Source: Escherichia phage Phagiculus | Sequence record: OR896821.1 | Length of the DNA stretch: 46,458 bases | Strand: one strand, 5' to 3' | Notes under the pieces: model-generated | What the model was told of the DNA's origin: nothing | Seen by the model: only the letters and a program-made list of their open reading frames with translations | The model's database searches: none | Translations under genes and position numbers: made by a program | Shown: in pieces, positions 101-35,194 of the stretch | Position numbering within the stretch: position 1 is the stretch's first letter | Layout of the letters: the number at the start of each line of letters is the position of its first letter

Positions 101-3073
101 TTAATTGTAACCCTTAAGAAAATTATAAAGCCTACCGCCTTGCTGCGCTGACTTCTCAAGCTCCTCAGCGACAATCAGTCTCACACCGCTCTCAATCGCC
201 TTAGCTTCTCCATCTGAGTTGCTTGAGCCGCCAACATTGACCGTAACTCCGCCAACGTTAACAGATGTTAAGCCGCCGCCAACAAGACCGCCATTCGCAT
301 AACCAGCGCTTAGATTGCCAACTGAGCCGCCATTAGCATATCCACGCATTAGCTTGTAAAGGTTTCCAACGCCAATCCTTGAAGTTGCCTCTTTTGTAAA
401 TACAAACTCTCCTTTGTGAACCGTGCCAGCTGGTTCGTACTTGCCACCGTTACCAGTGTAGCCGCCATCAGCGAAACCTAAAGCAGATATTAGCCCACTG
501 CCAGAGCTAGCTGCCGAGCCGCCACCAAAACTGCTGATAGTTGACTCAATAGCTTTAACTATAAGTAATTGAGTAGCAATCTTAGCGATCTGCTGAAGTA
601 TTGACGCTGCAAACTCCTTAAAGTTCGCCTTACCAGTAGTGAGGAGGCTTGTGATATTGTCTGTAATTCCAGTTAATACACTCTTTGTTAGATCGTAGCT
701 TATTTGGGCGAGGTTAGTTGCTTCAGCTGTGTAATCTTTAAATGCATCACTGGCGCCAGCAAGGAAGTCAGACCTTGCTAAATCCTCCTGCTTATAGAAA
801 GCCTCCTGAGCATCCCTAATTGCTTTATAGTCAGGGGAGTCAAGACTTCCACCCCTATTTAGCTGGTAAGATTCAGCTTTCGCCCTTTCTTGATTTCTGG
901 CATTCTCTATAGACCCGCTACCCCTATTGGATAGAGCAGCAGTCTGAGCAGCTAATTCTCTAGCCTTTTTAAGGTTATCGTCCTGAAGTTTATTCGCCCT
1001 TTCCTGCAAAACAATCTGATCGCCAAGTTCAGCTTTCTGTCTTGCCAATTCGAGAACCTTATCTTTCTCAATGAGAAGTCTGGCCTGCTCTCTTTTTATT
1101 GTACCAGCGTCCCGGCGCTCCTCGAGGATTGCAAACTTAGCTTCTTCGGCGAACAGCTGCTTGCGTTCATTACTGATTACGTCGCTAATCTGGCGGTGAT
1201 CTTTAAGAACCCTAAGCTGAGCCTCTAATGCAAGGACTCCAGACTCGTAGCTCAGCGTCAAATCTCTTTGGCTACCTACACCCTCCTTGCGCTTCTTGTT
1301 GGATTCCTCAATATCCTTAAGCTCCTGCTCTCTTGCCTTCCTACGCTTTTCAAATTCAGCGTCTGACTCACCCGTCCTTTGCTTCTCATCCTGAGAAGGC
1401 GTTACATAACCTAACTCACCTTTACGAATCCTAGCATCTCGCTCAGCGATTGACTTGATTAGCTCCTGATTGGCCTTCTCTATACCCTGGTTCTGCTCCT
1501 CAAACTGCTTAATTAGATCACTACCCACTCCTTTGGCCCCTGGTATCTTCTGGAAGGCCTTTAGAGAGGAAATCAAAAAGTCGTTGATGAGAATGTCACC
1601 CTGACCAATAAACAAACTGATTTGCTCAATTGTTTTAGCAACAACATCAGTGATAAGGTTGAGAGCGCCAAGCGTCCTGTTTCCAATGTCAGTCCAAATT
1701 CTTGATATGAAGTTCCTGAAGCCCTGCCATGCTCGCTCAAGTGGTGTAAGTGATTCGGCAACTTTAGTAAGGCGATTCTCCATAACATCAGCGAATAACT
1801 TAGTGGCAGCCGTTACAGCTTGCGTTTCACCTTGCGTAACCCTGATTTGCTCAATGTATTTAAGCTGACCTGCGGTTAAGAAGTTAAACTGCTTATCTAG
1901 CTCAGCAAGACCTTTGACCGGGTCATTTGCAATCTTGTCGAAGCTCTTAACGATATCTTCAGCTGAGTCACCAGTTACTGTGGCCCATCTAGCGGTTGCC
2001 TCTGTGATAATAGAAATCTGCGCTACAGTGCGATTGCCGCTAGCAACCAAACCTTTGGCAATCTCTTGACCAAGCCCCTGAGTTGCACCAGCAGCTTCTG
2101 ACGCGTTCCTGGCAAGATTCTGTATCGCAGCAGCAGATAAATTCGCATTCTGCCCAGTCAGTGTAAGAGTCTTTTCAAGCTGCGCCGTATTCTGGTATGC
2201 CTGGTAAGCCGACAATCCTAAAGCACCAAGAGCTACACCAAGCGCGCCAGCTGCAACTATAAAAGGATTCAATGCTGCAAGTGCAAATCTGAAGGTGTTA
2301 GCCACACCGCCAAAGCTATCTTTAATCTGTCCACCCTGCTGGATTGCAATCAACCAGATTGGAATACCGCCAGCGAGTGAGGTCCCGATATCTGTAATTT
2401 GCGCTGGCAACTGCCTGATTGCGTTTCTATACTCACCAGCGCTAAGTCCTGACTTTCTGAATGCACCGGACTGAGCCGACAATGCCGCAGAAGCTCTATT
2501 TGATGCATCAGCTATCTGATTAATAATAGGCGCCGCCTGGCTTGAAACACCCAACTCAGCAGCGCGAAGCTTAAGTAATTCCTCTCGAGTTAGTGTCGCC
2601 GCCTGCGCCTCCGCCTGCAAAGACTTAAGGAATCTTTCTGCCTGAGTCGCCGCTGTAGCTTTTGCCTTTGATGCCTCTATCGCCGCTCTGCCTTCCTCTG
2701 TCAAGGCGCGCTGATTCGTTCTCAGGCGATTTGTTTGCGTCTCCAGTGCCTCGCTTAAGCGGTAGAACTCAGCCTCTGGAACAACTCCAGCCGTAAAAGC
2801 CTTGTCCAGTGAGTTCGCGGCTTCCTGCAACTTACGCAGCTTTGATGCGGTCGGGTCGATTGCTGATTGTAAAGACTGAAAGGCGCTACGCTGCTCAGAA
2901 AGATAACGAGCTGTATCTCTTGCTTGATTTTTTGCTACCTGTTCGGCGTTAACGAAGCTACTAATTCCAGCTGCAGCTTGCTCGTTTGCGCGCTTAAATT
3001 CCTGCAACGACCTAGTGCCCTGGTCTACCTGCCTTACGTCTACGCCTAATGTAATTCCGGCAAATTCAGCCAT
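101..3073 (-). CDS. tail tape measure protein
   Basis: about 990 aa, coiled-coil rich, Gly-rich C-terminus, directly downstream of chaperone G/GT and upstream of M-L-K-I-J; GGAGG RBS before ATG at 3073 (ORF-track start at 3121 lies upstream of the terminator-like hairpin). Confidence 0.85.
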
Positions 3074-15889: not shown

Positions 15890-15965
15890 TGGCGTTCCGC
15901 GCTGGACTCGAACCAGCAACTGAGACTTAGGAGGTCTCTGCGTTATCCCGTTACGCCAGCAGAAC
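15890..15965 (-). tRNA. tRNA-Arg (anticodon CCU)
   Basis: hand-folded cloverleaf: 7-bp acceptor GTTCTGC/GCGGAAC, D-stem GCGT/ACGC, anticodon stem GAGAC/GTCTC with loop CTCCTAA, T-arm GCTGG-TTCGAGT-CCAGC, discriminator G, encoded CCA. Confidence 0.8.
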
Positions 15966-25463: not shown

Positions 25464-25507
25464 AATATAGCGCCTTTCGGCGCTATAGTCTTTAGCAAAA
25501 AGTGCTA
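25464..25507 (-). promoter_or_regulatory. conserved promoter module with hairpin in spacer
   Basis: tagcaaaaagtgcta at 25493..25507; ATAGCGCC-TTTC-GGCGCTAT hairpin; TATATT. Confidence 0.5.
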
Positions 25508-26644
25508 CTTAGTGAACATTTTAGGACGGCAGATGAATCGACCAACCTCGCCAAACTCTTTATGATAAATAATTACCGCAGCCTGACGCTGTGAACGCCA
25601 GCCTCCATTTGCACTGTATGCGTCAGGAGAGCCAAGCTGACCGTGAACCTCGTCAATACCCAAGTTAGTCTCTGTAATCTTCTGTGAGTGCCAGTGCCCT
25701 GAGTGGGTGTAAACATAATCACTAACACCAAAATCACGTCGCCAATCAGTAGCCATAACAGTCAATCGCGTTTCGGCTTTCCGCATCTGGTGGCCGTGAG
25801 TGTATCCAATCAAAGTAGAGCCAAACTTAGTAACCATCATAGCCGCGGGGCTTACGTCAACCGTGACTCGAGGCTCATCCTCATAGAATGCAGCAAGAGC
25901 GGCGCGAAGCCAAACCATACCAGATTCGTCGTGGTTGCCAGAAATTGTTTTAATATCAATAGTTTGGTGCTTCTCAAGCATCTTACGAATAGCTCGACGA
26001 ACAGACCTAATACAAACATAAACAATCTTAGCATAACGGCTGTCGCTGTCTAAAATATGACCGCTTGCAGGTGTCTTAGCCTCAAGTGAATCATAGTGAA
26101 TCAAGTCACCACCAAGTACAAGTACGGCATTCTTTGAGTTCGGCGCTTCATTTACAGCATAATCAAAGAAGTCATTCATTACCTTTTCTGCGGTTGCCGT
26201 GTCGTAGTTTTCACCACACTCATGCTTGTGAGCCATAGCGCCAATATGAAGGTCAAATACAGGGTACATAGCCAAAGTGTTTTCATCAAAAACTTTACCC
26301 TTAACTTCAACTGGTTCTTCTTTAGGTAACTCGGAGCAGAAAGCCTCTCGAGCTTGCTCCATCAACTGCTCAAGTCGCTCATTGTCAACGCTAGTCTTGA
26401 CCCACCGAATCTTCTCATTTCCTTCTGCGTCAATCATGGTTGATGTTCCCTTCACCATGTAACCATCTGGAACAAGCTTCTTAATGCCAGGATTTCCATG
26501 CAACTCACCAGCCTTAGCCAGCTTACTACGACGCAATTCAACATTGCGAATATTCATACCGTACTTCTCTGCGATTGCCTTGTTAGTCATTCCGTTCGCC
26601 AGTTCTTCACGAAGCTGTTCGTTGCTGATTTTTGCAGTTGCCAT
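25505..26644 (-). CDS. metallophosphoesterase (Mre11/SbcD-like) with N-terminal HTH
   Basis: FDLHIG, GGDLIH, GNHDE, GHWH motifs; N-terminal GMTNKAIAEKYGMNIRNVELRRSKL. Confidence 0.7.
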   Translation of the reverse strand: MATAKISNEQLREELANGMTNKAIAEKYGMNIRNVELRRSKLAKAGELHGNPGIKKLVPDGYMVKGTSTMIDAEGNEKIRWVKTSVDNERLEQLMEQAREAFCSELPKEEPVEVKGKVFDENTLAMYPVFDLHIGAMAHKHECGENYDTATAEKVMNDFFDYAVNEAPNSKNAVLVLGGDLIHYDSLEAKTPASGHILDSDSRYAKIVYVCIRSVRRAIRKMLEKHQTIDIKTISGNHDESGMVWLRAALAAFYEDEPRVTVDVSPAAMMVTKFGSTLIGYTHGHQMRKAETRLTVMATDWRRDFGVSDYVYTHSGHWHSQKITETNLGIDEVHGQLGSPDAYSANGGWRSQRQAAVIIYHKEFGEVGRFICRPKMFTK

Positions 26645-27008: not shown

Positions 27009-27223
27009 CCCTGAGATTTCAGGAACTCGTTAACATCAATACTCACACCAGGCTTAACTCTTACATGCTTTCTTGGCCTTTCTTCCATGTAAGAAAATTT
27101 ACCATTGAATACAACGCTAATATCTTTTATGTCAAAGAAGCGGGATATCTGTTTAATATCATCCTGCAATCCTGCCTCTCCACAGTGCGCCCATACAGCG
27201 GCGCGTCCGGTTTTAACTATCAT
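26981..27223 (-). CDS. hypothetical protein (80 aa)
   Basis: ORF. Confidence 0.45.
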   Translation of the reverse strand: MIVKTGRAAVWAHCGEAGLQDDIKQISRFFDIKDISVVFNGKFSYMEERPRKHVRVKPGVSIDVNEFLKSQGCKFKITKG

Positions 27224-27345
27224 AGGCCGTAAGCCATTTTTAAATATTCTCTAGCGCACATCCATGACCGTTCTGACTTACTCTTAACGGCATCTCTTGC
27301 GTAAACCTGTGCAATCTCGAACATCTCTCTGTCTACAATTTTCAT
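27220..27345 (-). CDS. hypothetical small protein (41 aa), not in ORF track
   Basis: TAATG and ATGA overlaps with both neighbours. Confidence 0.3.
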   Translation of the reverse strand: MKIVDREMFEIAQVYARDAVKSKSERSWMCAREYLKMAYGL

Positions 27346-27584
27346 TAATGCAACTCCTCGCACTCAAAGCTAAAAATAATCATGTCGTTATAATCAGTAA
27401 GGTAATACGAAGTGCCATCAAGTGACTTTTCAGCCTCGAAGACTTTTGCATCTCCCTTACTTTCAGTGAGGTAATACGAAGTGCCATCAAATGATTTTTC
27501 AGCCTCGAATACTCTTGTACCTCCCTTACTTTCAATCCACCTTGATAGTGCCATTGTTGGGTTTGTGATTACTATTTTCATCAT
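27345..27584 (-). CDS. hypothetical protein with internal 23-aa tandem repeat
   Basis: VFEAEKSFDGTSYYLTE / VFEAEKSLDGTSYYLTD. Confidence 0.5.
   Translation of the reverse strand: MMKIVITNPTMALSRWIESKGGTRVFEAEKSFDGTSYYLTESKGDAKVFEAEKSLDGTSYYLTDYNDMIIFSFECEELH
27397..27536. repeat. 69-bp tandem duplication (2 copies, near-identical) inside CDS
   Basis: ggtaatacgaagtgccatcaa...cctcgaa...cccttactttca repeated with period 69. Confidence 0.8.
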
Positions 27585-27802
27585 TTAAAATCCTCTGGGC
27601 AATCTTTTTTCATTTCTTCGATGTCTGCAACCATACGTTCACGCCATGTTTCGATATCTGTATTTAGATAATCTTCTTCAAAGCTCATGTCAATACAAAG
27701 TGATAAGTCCCATGGGTTTTTGTTATAACCAGATTTCTTTAGCTCCTCAACTGCCATTAACTTAAATACTTCCCATTGATTTTCAAAAGTAAAAATAGCC
27801 AT
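27581..27802 (-). CDS. hypothetical protein (73 aa)
   Basis: ORF. Confidence 0.45.
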   Translation of the reverse strand: MAIFTFENQWEVFKLMAVEELKKSGYNKNPWDLSLCIDMSFEEDYLNTDIETWRERMVADIEEMKKDCPEDFK

Positions 27803-28032: not shown

Positions 28033-28075
28033 ATAATACATCACTTCTCCGATTCGTCTTTAGCAATTAGTGCTA
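28033..28075 (-). promoter_or_regulatory. conserved promoter module
   Basis: tagcaattagtgcta at 28061..28075; aagacg; minus-strand TATTAT at 28038..28033; leader CATCGAAACGAAACG. Confidence 0.6.
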
Positions 28076-28450
28076 TTTTGATAAGTAATCCTCAATCGCC
28101 AGCTTAAACATTTCAAAACCGTAACAGATAGCTGCGTAACCTCCTGTTTCTGATACCTTTTCTAGGAAATCCTTTTGCTCCTTTGAAACCTTGCTATCTG
28201 ATTTTATTGCGCGCTTAAGTTCGATTGCCGCGAATCCATTTGGTCCAATCAGCAAGATATCTGAAACTCCCTTGATTACACCTTCCTGCTTATCCTTGAC
28301 GGCAGTTCCAATTGACTTCAGGCCTTCATTCTTGACGTGAAAGGCAAATATCTCAGGGTGGTTATGACGCACCCAAGCAATCGAATTAACCTGGTGAACA
28401 ACCTCTTTAGCTTTATCCGTGCTTGTCTTGTCGTGAAATACTTTAATCAT
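28073..28450 (-). CDS. VRR-NUC domain nuclease
   Basis: GVSDILLIGPNGFAAIELK D...E.K pattern; AAGGAG RBS before ATG at 28450. Confidence 0.5.
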   Translation of the reverse strand: MIKVFHDKTSTDKAKEVVHQVNSIAWVRHNHPEIFAFHVKNEGLKSIGTAVKDKQEGVIKGVSDILLIGPNGFAAIELKRAIKSDSKVSKEQKDFLEKVSETGGYAAICYGFEMFKLAIEDYLSK

Positions 28451-28451
28451 A

Positions 28452-30382
28452 TTAGAACTCCTTATTTGCCATGTTATCGCCACCTTTGGCGGTCTTACGG
28501 TGAGTTACTCGCTTTGGAGCCTGAATGTATTGTGCGAACTCCATAATCTTACGAGCATTGCGATATGCAGCCATGTATCTTTTAGCATTCATATCTACTA
28601 CATGCCCCTTAATTCCATTATTCAACCATAAAGTCTTGCATACTCGATGGTCCGACTCTACAAAGAAAACCTCCTGAGCCTTAAATGTCCCACCCATGCC
28701 GTCATCAAGGACGTAGTTGTAGATGATTCCTGATTGGTTCTTGGTGAGGCCAACTTTGAAATCAACAACATCAAACCAGTCATTTTTTCTATAATGTTTA
28801 CCGCTTAACTTCAGATTTGGGTCAAGCAAAGTGCAATCACAACCCCTGCAAATCTTGGCAGCTACGTCATTCTGAACTCCACAACCTTTAACGGTAATCT
28901 TTCCTGTGCGTGGGTCCTTCTGGTCTTCACAGGTGCGACTAACCCAGAAATATTCACAGCGATTGTTATTCTCATCAACATGCATACAGCGACGAGCATA
29001 AAAGCTATTCTCAGTTCCGCAAACTGGGCACTGCTTGGTTTCCTTGCCATTACTCTTGCGTAGCTGATATTGGGCCTGTTCAAGTATTGGGTTGAAGTAA
29101 AGCGCAGCCATTGAATCCATAGTTCCAGCGAAATCCAAAACAAGGTGGTCATTCTTGACCATTCCTTTATCTTCATGAAACTTTTTGAGTTTACGCATCC
29201 CTCGACCAAGAAGCTGAACAAGAAGTGTAAGGCTACCAATCTTGCGAAGAATAACGCTTGTATCCCATGTTGGTACGTTAACCCCAGTAGTCAGAGCCTG
29301 AACCTGGAAGCAGTATTTTATCTCTCCATTAAAGCACTTATCTAATAACTCTTTACGCTGCTTTTCACCAGTCTTGCCAGTAATAACGCAGAAAGTTTCC
29401 CCTTCTGGCAAGTAGCTAGCCGCTTCATGGCAATGTCTTTCACCAGCACAAGTAACCAGAACTCCGTTACGGTCTTTAGCAGCGAGCCAGACCTTCTTCA
29501 TTATCTCAGCTGTCATTGTTCCGGACTGCTGAATCTTCTTCTCCATTGCCTCAAGCTGAGCCTTTGTATAGTCCTGCACTCCATCATCTGCGGAAGTGTC
29601 GAACTCTGACAGGTCATAACCCATACCATCAGTGGCGCCAAAGTTTGTCGGTACTACGGAGCCGAACTCAACAAGATAATCTGTATCTATATTTGTAACA
29701 GTCTCGCGCCAGAACCCCATCTCCTTTTTGTTCTCAACGACAATTGGAGTGGTTCCACGGAAAGGTGAGCCAGTCAGGCCAAAGATACGCAGGTTCTTGC
29801 CATACTTGGCTCGGCAGCGTTCCATTAAAGTCAGGATGATAACTGTGTACTGGCTGCGACCTTTATCTGATGCCTGTTGCGCAGTTTCGTTGTTATCAAT
29901 TGCCTCTGCGATATCCTGGTCATCAACCATGTGACACTCATCAATAGCAACTACCGCAGGGCAAAAATCACCAAGTGACTTCTCAAGACCTCCAACTACC
30001 GTGCCCTCGGAGCCAACTACAATTGGGAAATAAGAAGACTTAATGCCAAGTCCTGAGCAATAGATAGAGTTAGGTACACCATAGTCAGAAATCTCAGAAG
30101 CATTCTGGCTAACTAACTCAGCCTGACGCGCGAGAACAAGCATTGGCAAGCCAAGTTCGGAGCAGCGCTTAGCGACCATGCCAAAAACAAGCGTCTTACC
30201 TGCGGAAACCGAAGCCATTGCGATGAATGGGTGCTCATAACGACCAATACGTTTTGCAATCTCATTGTACATTACACACTGATAGCTATAAGGAACCATG
30301 CCGTTTGATGAAGTGAATTTAGTTTGAATCTCTTTGATTTTATCTTCGCCAAGTTCTGCAATCTGTTTCTTAATATTAATCA
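28452..30382 (-). CDS. SF2 DEAD/DEAH-type helicase with C-terminal Cys-rich zinc-ribbon region
   Basis: Walker A SVSAGKTLV, Walker B AIDECHMV; CPVCG...C...C cluster; ORF-track start at 30431 is TTG and overlaps the promoter. Confidence 0.8.
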
Positions 30383-30394
30383 TGACCTTGCCAT

Positions 30395-30422
30395 TTGTTT
30401 CGTTTATGTATGGTGCTATAAT
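30395..30422 (+). promoter_or_regulatory. sigma70-like extended -10 promoter for HTH gene
   Basis: TTGTTT - 16 nt - TGcTATAAT on plus strand. Confidence 0.4.
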
Positions 30423-30459
30423 ACACGACAAGCGAAAACACTTTTAGCAAAAAATGCTA
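30418..30459 (-). promoter_or_regulatory. conserved promoter module (divergent with 30395..30422)
   Basis: tagcaaaaaatgcta at 30445..30459; minus-strand TATTAT at 30423..30418. Confidence 0.5.
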
Positions 30460-34777: not shown

Positions 34778-35194
34778 TCAGAACGGGATGTCCTCATCGT
34801 CACTAAAGCGGCTTTGTTGCTGAGGTTGTTGTCGCTGCTGCTGAGGTTGTTTTTGCTGCTGTGGTGCTGATTCCCCACCACGCTGGCTAAACATCAATCG
34901 CGGGTTCTGCAACTCAAGTGTAATATATGTCTTACCATTATGTTTCCGCTCGTTAACTGCTAATGAATCACCGCTCACAGAGATAACCTTTCCTTCCTGG
35001 AAGGCTTCATCATACCAACTAATCTGCGCCTCGCTTGCAAAAAGCGTAATTCTGTAATTGGTATATTTACGCTCTCCATCTTTAGTCTTGTAAGATTCGC
35101 TCATCTCGATAGCGTACATCTTCCAGTTCCCTTTTGCATTCTGACCATCTTTAGTGTAAGGAGCCTTACGAATCTGACCTGTAATTACGTGCAT
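34778..35194 (-). CDS. ssb: single-stranded DNA-binding protein
   Basis: OB-fold-like N-terminus, Gln/Pro-rich linker, acidic tail SDDEDIPF. Confidence 0.8.
   Translation of the reverse strand: MHVITGQIRKAPYTKDGQNAKGNWKMYAIEMSESYKTKDGERKYTNYRITLFASEAQISWYDEAFQEGKVISVSGDSLAVNERKHNGKTYITLELQNPRLMFSQRGGESAPQQQKQPQQQRQQPQQQSRFSDDEDIPF

What the first reader, a model, noticed from the sequence alone, without database searches (positions are those of the whole stretch)
27397..27536. In-frame 69-bp tandem duplication inside a small early gene
Two adjacent 69-bp copies encode a repeated 23-aa unit (VFEAEKSxDGTSYYLTx). Tandem duplications of this kind are usually recent and can expand or contract, so the gene may be length-variable between isolates.
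Basis: seen in the sequence. Interest (0 to 1): 0.35.

Follow-up and report, generated by a model that had tools for sequence, protein, structure and literature searches.

The report
Duplicated beta-hairpin in orphan phage gene
A tiny gene of unknown function in a T1-like E. coli phage carries a genuine but not recent in-frame 69-bp tandem duplication, absent from every other known copy of the gene; it is an ordinary kind of mutation in an uncharacterised accessory gene.

Summary
Two head-to-tail 69-bp copies (62/69 identical) lie at window 27396..27533 on the minus strand. They sit in frame inside a 78/79-aa ORF (27345..27584), which is hypothetical protein CDS0058 of Escherichia phage Phagiculus (Drexlerviridae).

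Only seven related protein clusters were found among 5.8 billion clusters, and ten loci encoding them were recovered. All come from T1-like phage contigs, occupy the same slot, and carry a single unit (55 aa). Phagiculus is therefore the only duplicated allele.

The unit is a loop plus a predicted beta-hairpin, and its ends share a 3-nt TGA microhomology, which fits slippage or illegitimate recombination. Both copies share three changes absent from the closest alleles. Each also has three private changes. The duplication therefore arose in this lineage but is not recent. It is unlikely to be an assembly artefact and does not look like an unstable VNTR.

Substitution patterns show a real protein under purifying selection. 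No family, defence-system or fold match exists, so the function is unknown. My inference is a dispensable accessory protein: the slot is a cassette hot spot and the whole gene is absent from the nearest database phages.

This is a low-interest new member of a known kind of event.

The parts
27345..27584 (-). 78/79-aa ORF carrying the duplication (Phagiculus CDS0058). The start is either the ATG at 27584, which overlaps the upstream stop as ATGA, or the ATG at 27581, which corresponds to the start used in all homologues.
   Evidence: ORF list. 100% match to NCBI 'hypothetical protein CPL00134L_CDS0058 [Escherichia phage Phagiculus]'. Among alleles, variable sites fall 16/12/30 by codon position and pN/pS is 0.15-0.33.
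27465..27533 (-). Repeat copy 1 (start-proximal), ESKGGTRVFEAEKSFDGTSYYLT. It spans a loop plus a predicted beta-hairpin.
   Evidence: AlphaFold model strands at residues 23-29 and 35-40.
27396..27464 (-). Repeat copy 2 (start-distal), ESKGDAKVFEAEKSLDGTSYYLT. This is the second predicted beta-hairpin.
   Evidence: AlphaFold model strands at residues 47-52 and 59-62.
27581..27802 (-). Upstream 73-aa gene (phrog_2676, unknown function). Its TGA stop overlaps the start codon(s) of the repeat gene.
27220..27345 (-). Downstream 41-aa gene (phrog_2180, unknown function, with a weak PHROG 'Kil' hit). Its ATG overlaps the TAA stop of the repeat gene as TAATG.
27570..27583 (-). Upstream boundary repeat TGATGAAAATAGTA. 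It matches the downstream boundary repeat at 12/14 positions. In L002 the two repeats match 14/14.
27334..27347 (-). Downstream boundary repeat TAATGAAAATTGTA. Phages lacking the gene (L001) keep exactly one copy of this 14-mer.

Best explanation
The feature is a genuine in-frame tandem duplication of 69 bp (23 codons) in a small orphan accessory gene of the T1-like coliphage Phagiculus.

Ancestral state: a 55-aa protein with the predicted topology beta1-alpha1-loop-beta2-turn-beta3-beta4.

Duplicated segment: exactly the loop plus the beta2/beta3 hairpin, with both breakpoints in loops. The product is predicted to keep its fold and gain two extra antiparallel strands.

Origin (inferred): one slipped-strand or illegitimate-recombination event between the two TGA triplets that bracket the unit in single-copy alleles.

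Age: the event occurred in the Phagiculus lineage. Each copy has since fixed 3-4 substitutions, so the duplication is established and old relative to the rest of the gene. It is not a recent or unstable expansion.

Expression (inferred): the gene is translated as part of the minus-strand helicase / VRR-NUC / small-ORF operon through overlapping stop and start codons.

Function (inferred, low confidence): unknown. Most likely it is a dispensable, small acidic protein that binds a host or phage partner, and the duplication doubles its most variable surface loop.
For: Shown:
- The repeat is real and far beyond chance.
- It is in frame in a 79-aa ORF.
- All seven homologous protein clusters found among 5.8 billion clusters have one unit. 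An exhaustive profile search of 1.84 billion representatives adds no real relative.
- All ten homologous loci sit in the same slot, upstream of the 41-aa gene and downstream of the 73-aa gene where that part of the contig was recovered; extra small genes intervene in L007-L010.
- The gene is coding and under purifying selection: variable sites are 16/12/30 by codon position and pN/pS is 0.15-0.33.
- With L002, L006 and L007 as outgroups, both copies share changes at unit positions 9, 17 and 20. Each copy has three private changes.
- The repeat extends 3 nt (TGA) beyond two full units. The same TGA brackets the unit in the single-copy allele L002.
- AlphaFold gives beta-alpha-beta-beta-beta for the 55-aa form and the same fold with one extra hairpin for the 78-aa form.
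- Stop and start codons overlap at both ends of the gene. A terminator-like hairpin closes the operon at 25487..25466.
- The whole gene is absent from all 99 matching phage records and from the closest relatives. This supports dispensability.
Against: - The structure models have only moderate confidence (mean pLDDT 66 and 70), and one was made without an alignment.
- A 3-nt microhomology is weak evidence for the mechanism.
- No read data were available, so an artefact is made unlikely only indirectly, by the divergence between the copies.
- There is no functional evidence at all: no family, defence-system or fold match.
- The repeat region has diverged about ten times more than the rest of the gene, including at synonymous sites. 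A simple duplicate-then-drift history does not fully explain this.
Confidence: 0.8

Rival explanations
1. It is a recent, unstable duplication that behaves as a length-variable (VNTR-like) locus, expanding and contracting between isolates.
For: Head-to-tail repeats can recombine. This allele differs in length from all the others.
Against: The copies differ at 7/69 nt, each with private substitutions. The longest shared run is 22 nt. No 3-unit allele was found, and all ten other loci carry one unit. The non-repeat part of the gene is 99% identical to L002, whereas the copies are only 90% identical to each other.
Confidence: 0.07
2. The duplication arose by unequal crossover between two diverged alleles from co-infecting phages. 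Under this view the 10% difference between the copies predates the event.
For: The copies are as different from each other (7/69) as each is from L002 (7/69), while the gene's flanking parts are nearly identical to L002. T1-like phages are highly mosaic, and this slot is a cassette hot spot.
Against: Both copies share three states at unit positions 9, 17 and 20 that L002, L006 and L007 lack. C at position 17, and the loss of C at position 20, are unique to the two copies among all the alleles. No known allele matches either copy.
Confidence: 0.1
3. It is an assembly or sequencing artefact.
For: No read data could be examined here.
Against: Artefactual duplications normally produce identical copies. 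Here there are 7 differences with no indels or frame disruption. The 138-bp array is probably shorter than, or close to, typical read lengths (an inference; the sequencing platform was not checked). The same protein is on record in NCBI and ENA, probably from the same assembly.
Confidence: 0.02
4. The repeat is primarily a DNA-level element, such as a pair of protein-binding sites or iterons, that only happens to lie in an ORF.
For: Two direct repeats lie within a replication-module operon.
Against: Relatives have one copy or none. Substitutions are biased to the third codon position and pN/pS is below 0.35. Rfam finds nothing there. Promoter and terminator matches in the region are at chance level.
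Confidence: 0.01

Closest known systems
The 55-aa orphan protein family of T1-like coliphages (P0002-P0008, e.g. 'TPA: hypothetical protein LUK65_003752 [Escherichia coli]')
   Same: It is 49-68% identical over the full length, with E-values of 1e-15 to 1e-30, and occupies the same slot upstream of the 41-aa gene, downstream of the 73-aa gene in the loci where that gene was recovered. A, L, S, W, I, Y, L, T and FECE positions are invariant.
   Different: Phagiculus alone has the loop-plus-hairpin unit twice. The family has no Pfam, PHROG, NCBIfam or PADLOC model and no known function.
Intragenic tandem duplication by slipped-strand mispairing or illegitimate recombination at short direct repeats (a general mutational class; stated from established knowledge)
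   Same: The copies are head to tail with no spacer and in frame. A 3-nt microhomology (TGA) sits at both ends of the unit in the single-copy allele.
   Different: The mechanism is inferred from the junction only. The copies have since diverged by 10%, so the original junction cannot be read exactly.
VNTR or contingency loci, and length-variable repeat proteins
   Same: It is a tandem in-frame repeat within a coding sequence.
   Different: There are only two copies. They are 10% diverged, and no copy-number series appears among the related loci.
Growth of beta-sheet proteins by beta-hairpin duplication (for example the proposed hairpin-repeat origin of outer-membrane beta-barrels; from memory, not tested here)
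   Same: The duplicated unit matches a predicted strand-turn-strand element, and the breakpoints lie in loops.
   Different: This rests on moderate-confidence models. There is no experimental structure and no homology to those families.
Mosaic gene-cassette exchange at conserved gene-boundary sequences in tailed phages (known from lambdoid phages; from memory)
   Same: The whole 168-bp gene is an exact indel bracketed by the 14-bp direct repeat TAATGAAAATTGTA. In L007 and L009 the gene carries its own copy of the upstream gene's 3' end, GAGGATTTTGAATAATG.
   Different: This concerns gain or loss of the gene, not the internal duplication. No recombination event was observed directly.

Membership tests
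55-aa orphan family of T1-like phages (P0002-P0008) | Significant full-length sequence similarity | tested here: met
   E-values of 1e-15 to 1e-30 with 87-99% query coverage. The alignment has 22 invariant columns.
55-aa orphan family of T1-like phages (P0002-P0008) | Conserved genomic slot upstream of the 41-aa gene (phrog_2180) and downstream of the 73-aa gene (phrog_2676) | tested here: met
   All ten loci keep the gene just upstream of the 41-aa gene (a truncated 34-aa version in L011). The 73-aa gene lies upstream in every locus except L006, whose contig ends 40 nt before the gene. Extra small genes intervene in L007-L010.
55-aa orphan family of T1-like phages (P0002-P0008) | Single loop-hairpin unit (length about 55 aa) | tested here: not met
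   Phagiculus has two units (79 aa); all the other alleles have one. It is a length variant of the family.
VNTR / contingency locus | Near-identical repeat copies that allow frequent slippage | tested here: not met
   The copies are 62/69 identical, and the longest identical run is 22 nt.
VNTR / contingency locus | Copy-number polymorphism among close relatives | tested here: not met
   One allele has two units and ten loci have one. No intermediate or higher copy numbers were found. Independent isolates of Phagiculus itself were not available.
Microhomology-mediated tandem duplication | Head-to-tail copies with a short direct repeat at the unit ends in the unduplicated allele | tested here: met
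   In L002 the unit is bracketed by GGAT-TGA-AAGT and TTAC-TGA-TTAT. The TRF array is 141 nt, which is 2 x 69 + 3. This is weak evidence because the repeat is only 3 nt.
Any curated protein family or defence / anti-defence family (Pfam, PHROGs, NCBIfam, PADLOC) | Profile match above threshold | tested here: not met
   Pfam and PADLOC give no hit at E <= 1. The best PHROG hit has E = 0.067. The best NCBIfam hit scores 18 bits against a cut-off of 37.9.
Any solved or predicted fold family | Significant structural match | tested here: inconclusive
Early phage gene | Transcription early in infection | not testable with these tools
   Only position is known: the gene lies in the minus-strand helicase/VRR-NUC operon.

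The most novel reading that the evidence does not exclude
The duplication is adaptive. Under this reading the hairpin with its hypervariable preceding loop is the surface that binds a host target, such as a defence or takeover target. Doubling and then diverging that hairpin gave Phagiculus a bivalent or dual-specificity inhibitor. The excess divergence of the repeat relative to the rest of the gene would then be a trace of diversifying selection.
Probability: 0.1. Interest if true: 0.4.

Novelty: new member of a known kind. Interest (0 to 1): 0.18.

Why it matters
It matters little on its own. It is a clean natural example of a small beta-sheet protein growing by exact duplication of one hairpin, with the single-unit ancestor still circulating in sister phages. 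That could serve as a small case study in protein evolution. It also flags an uncharacterised, dispensable orphan gene in a cassette hot spot of T1-like therapeutic-candidate phages. It does not open a long-standing question.

Tried and rejected
- DNA and tblastn searches of 50,697 phage records with the gene found nothing. A blastn search of 5,426 complete E. coli genomes also found nothing.
- Degenerate-pattern scans of IMG/VR, JGI metagenomes and GTDB genomes gave no confirmed relatives.
- The exhaustive profile search produced one extra hit, P0009 (523 aa, 10 stretches). I rejected it as a translated satellite repeat with summed weak matches.
- Pfam, PHROGs, NCBIfam and PADLOC gave nothing usable.
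- The PDB sequence search gave only weak matches, mainly nitrophorin (E about 0.04), which I rejected as chance.
- The Rfam scan found only a tRNA elsewhere in the window.
- Promoter and terminator scanning was at chance level, apart from one convincing terminator at 25487..25466.
- A literature search for comparable phage microhomology duplications returned nothing relevant.
- The only paper naming Phagiculus lists it as Drexlerviridae, Rogunavirinae, without gene-level analysis (PMC10893117).
- pN/pS between the copies (0.38, from 4 non-synonymous and 3 synonymous changes) rests on too few changes to separate relaxed from positive selection.

Full report
**1. The observation**

Tandem Repeats Finder reports one array at window 27394..27534. 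It has period 69, 2.0 copies, 90% matches and no indels. Its score of 233 is far above every other array in the window.

Read on the minus strand and in codon phase, the two copies are:
- Copy 1, 27533..27465: ESKGGTRVFEAEKSFDGTSYYLT
- Copy 2, 27464..27396: ESKGDAKVFEAEKSLDGTSYYLT

They are identical at 62/69 nt and 19/23 aa. The probability of at least 62/69 matches by chance is about 2e-29, or about 5e-22 after correcting for positions and periods. Twenty shuffles of the window never exceeded 66% identity for periods of 30-150.

**2. What carries the repeat**

The repeat lies in frame in the minus-strand ORF 27345..27584 (79 aa). This protein is 100% identical to 'hypothetical protein CPL00134L_CDS0058 [Escherichia phage Phagiculus]', found on a 46,458-bp contig, which is the length of the window. 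Phagiculus is a Citizen Phage Library isolate listed as Drexlerviridae, Rogunavirinae (PMC10893117).

The gene sits in a tightly packed minus-strand gene string:
- helicase, 28452..30431
- VRR-NUC-like protein, 28073..28483
- small ORFs
- the 73-aa gene, 27581..27802
- this gene
- the 41-aa gene, 27220..27345
- two ORFs of about 80-93 aa
- a 379-aa protein, 25505..26644
- a strong terminator-like hairpin, 25487..25466

The stop of the upstream gene overlaps the start of this gene (AAATGATG). This gene's stop overlaps the start of the next gene (TAATG). This suggests translational coupling, which is an inference. In homologues the start corresponds to the second ATG, so the product may be 78 rather than 79 aa.

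**3. Relatives**

The word-indexed search of 5.8 billion protein clusters returned only seven other clusters, with E-values of 1e-15 to 1e-30. Five clusters are 55 aa. One is 69 aa because of an upstream start call. One is a 51-aa call on a low-coverage contig. Every one contains a single unit.

An exhaustive HMMER profile search of 1.84 billion representatives added no genuine relative. Its one extra hit, P0009, is a translated satellite repeat.

Other searches also found nothing:
- Pattern scans of IMG/VR, JGI metagenomes and GTDB genomes
- blastn and tblastn against 50,697 phage records
- blastn against complete E. coli genomes

I recovered ten loci for the homologues. All are T1-like phage contigs. 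The gene always lies just upstream of the 41-aa gene (a truncated 34-aa version in L011). The 73-aa gene lies upstream of it in every locus except L006, whose contig ends 40 nt before the gene.

In the nearest database phages, the Veterinaerplatzvirus vB_EcoS-* group at about 87% nt identity, the gene is absent altogether.

**4. It is a real gene**

Among the single-unit alleles, variable columns fall 16/12/30 by codon position. Pairwise pN/pS is 0.15-0.33 at pS of 0.36-0.71. The reading frame is therefore under purifying selection. This also argues against the repeat being primarily a DNA-level element. Rfam has no match there.

**5. History of the duplication**

I polarised the differences using the three closest alleles (L002, L006, L007) as outgroups:
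- Both copies share changes at unit positions 9, 17 and 20. The C at position 17, and the loss of C at position 20, are unique to the two copies among all alleles.
- Copy 1 has private changes at positions 16, 24 and 66.
- Copy 2 has private changes at positions 14, 39 and 43.
- Position 20 also differs between the copies.

The copies are therefore each other's closest relatives, so the duplication arose within this lineage. Each has since accumulated 3-4 substitutions. Across the two copies there are 4 non-synonymous and 3 synonymous differences, giving pN/pS of 0.38, which is too few changes to interpret.

Three of the four amino-acid differences lie in the loop after the helix (GG-TR versus GD-AK). 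This loop is the most variable segment of the whole family: VT, GT, NT, KT, NA.

In single-copy alleles the unit is bracketed by TGA triplets (GGAT-TGA-AAGT ... TTAC-TGA-TTAT). The array is 141 nt, which is 2 x 69 + 3. This fits slipped-strand or illegitimate recombination at a 3-nt microhomology. The mechanism is inferred and the evidence for it is weak.

The divergence between the copies argues against an assembly artefact and against a recent event:
- The copies differ at 7/69 nt and the longest identical run is 22 nt.
- The rest of the gene differs from L002 at only 1/99 nt (Fisher p = 0.009).

No 3-unit allele exists among the known sequences. The locus therefore does not behave like a VNTR.

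**6. An unexplained detail**

Neighbouring genes differ from L002 by 11-21%, and each repeat copy differs from it by about 10%. The non-repeat 99 nt of this gene differ by only 1%. Synonymous sites are affected too, so selection on the protein alone cannot explain the contrast.

Three explanations remain open:
- Recent lateral exchange of the cassette, with later changes concentrated in the repeat
- Homogenisation of the flanks by recombination
- Inter-allele unequal crossover

**7. Structure and function**

AlphaFold2 gave two models:
- 55-aa form, seven-sequence alignment, mean pLDDT 70: beta(3-5), helix(10-18), beta(27-29), beta(36-39), beta(45-53)
- 78-aa form, single sequence, mean pLDDT 66: beta(2-6), helix(10-17), beta(23-29), beta(35-40), beta(47-52), beta(59-62), beta(68-77)

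The second model is the same fold with one additional hairpin. The duplicated unit (residues 17-39 and 40-62) is thus a loop plus strand-turn-strand, with the breakpoints in loops. That explains why the insertion would be tolerated.

The proteins are small and mostly acidic. The pI is 4.3-4.6 for three of the four forms computed, and 6.5 for P0007.

Nothing known resembles the protein:
- Pfam, PHROGs, NCBIfam and PADLOC gave no usable hit.
- The PDB sequence profile search gave only chance-level hits.
- The best Foldseek E-values were 0.31 against PDB and 0.27 against BFVD, the latter to an uncharacterised Aeromonas phage protein.

My working inference, held with low confidence, is a dispensable accessory protein that binds some host or phage partner. 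It rests on four points:
- The gene is present in some phages and absent in others.
- It sits in a cassette hot spot.
- The neighbouring 41-aa gene gives a weak 'Kil' hit (E = 0.003).
- The protein is small and acidic.

**8. Context noticed**

The slot between the 73-aa and 41-aa genes varies among the related phages:
- Empty in L001
- The 55-aa gene alone in L002-L005
- 66-aa, 38-aa and 55-aa genes in L007 and L008
- 63-aa and 55-aa genes in L009 and L010

The 168-bp gene is an exact indel bracketed by the 14-bp direct repeat TAATGAAAATTGTA. Both this gene and the 41-aa gene begin with MKIV. In L007 and L009 the gene carries its own copy of the upstream gene's 3' end plus start, GAGGATTTTGAATAATG. 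These look like gene-boundary sequences reused in cassette exchange.

**9. Verdict**

It is an in-frame tandem duplication, and the gene's length does differ among related phages. It is not recent and shows no sign of expanding or contracting.

This is a new member of a known kind of event: intragenic duplication of a secondary-structure unit, here in an orphan phage accessory gene. Interest is low (0.18). The most novel reading still open is adaptive doubling of a target-binding hairpin, at about 10% probability.

Noticed in passing
window 27220..27802 (-); loci L001, L002-L005, L007-L010: The slot between the 73-aa (phrog_2676) and 41-aa (phrog_2180) genes is a cassette hot spot in T1-like phages. 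It is empty in L001, holds the 55-aa gene alone in L002-L005, holds 66+38+55-aa genes in L007/L008, and holds 63+55-aa genes in L009/L010.
   Followed up: partly
window 27570..27583 and 27334..27347 (-); L002 around 2399-2412 and 2566-2579: The whole 168-bp gene is an exact indel bracketed by the 14-bp direct repeat TAATGAAAATTGTA. Both the repeat gene and the next gene start with MKIV, and phages lacking the gene keep one copy of the 14-mer. In L007 and L009 the gene also carries a second copy of the upstream gene's 3' end, GAGGATTTTGAATAATG. These look like boundary sequences used for cassette gain or loss.
   Followed up: partly
window 27345..27584 versus L002 2402..2569 and neighbouring genes: The non-repeat 99 nt of the gene differ from L002 at 1 site (1%). 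The neighbouring genes differ by 11-21% and each repeat copy by 10%. This suggests recent lateral exchange of the cassette or local rate heterogeneity. It remains unexplained.
   Followed up: partly
window 15890..15965 (-): A tRNA-Arg (anticodon CCT) gene was found by both Rfam (56.9 bits) and ARAGORN.
   Followed up: no
window 27220..27345 (-): The 41-aa neighbour (phrog_2180, unknown function) gives a weak match to PHROG 2055, 'Kil protein for bacterial septation inhibition' (E = 0.003).
   Followed up: no
window 25466..25487 (-): A strong intrinsic-terminator-like hairpin (9-bp stem with 5 G-C pairs, then a T-rich tail) lies directly after the 379-aa gene. It probably closes the minus-strand helicase-to-379-aa operon.
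   Followed up: no
window 278..356 and 34818..34865: Two other short tandem repeats were reported. One has period 39 and 2 copies at 80% identity, inside the 1006-aa minus-strand ORF. The other has period 21 (or 18) and about 2 copies, inside the 138-aa ORF 34778..35194.
   Followed up: no
L011 600..930: On one low-coverage metagenome contig the homologue's 3' end is altered (...ECEVLNNENLR) and the following 41-aa gene is truncated to 34 aa. This could be a frameshift at the gene junction or a sequencing error.
   Followed up: no
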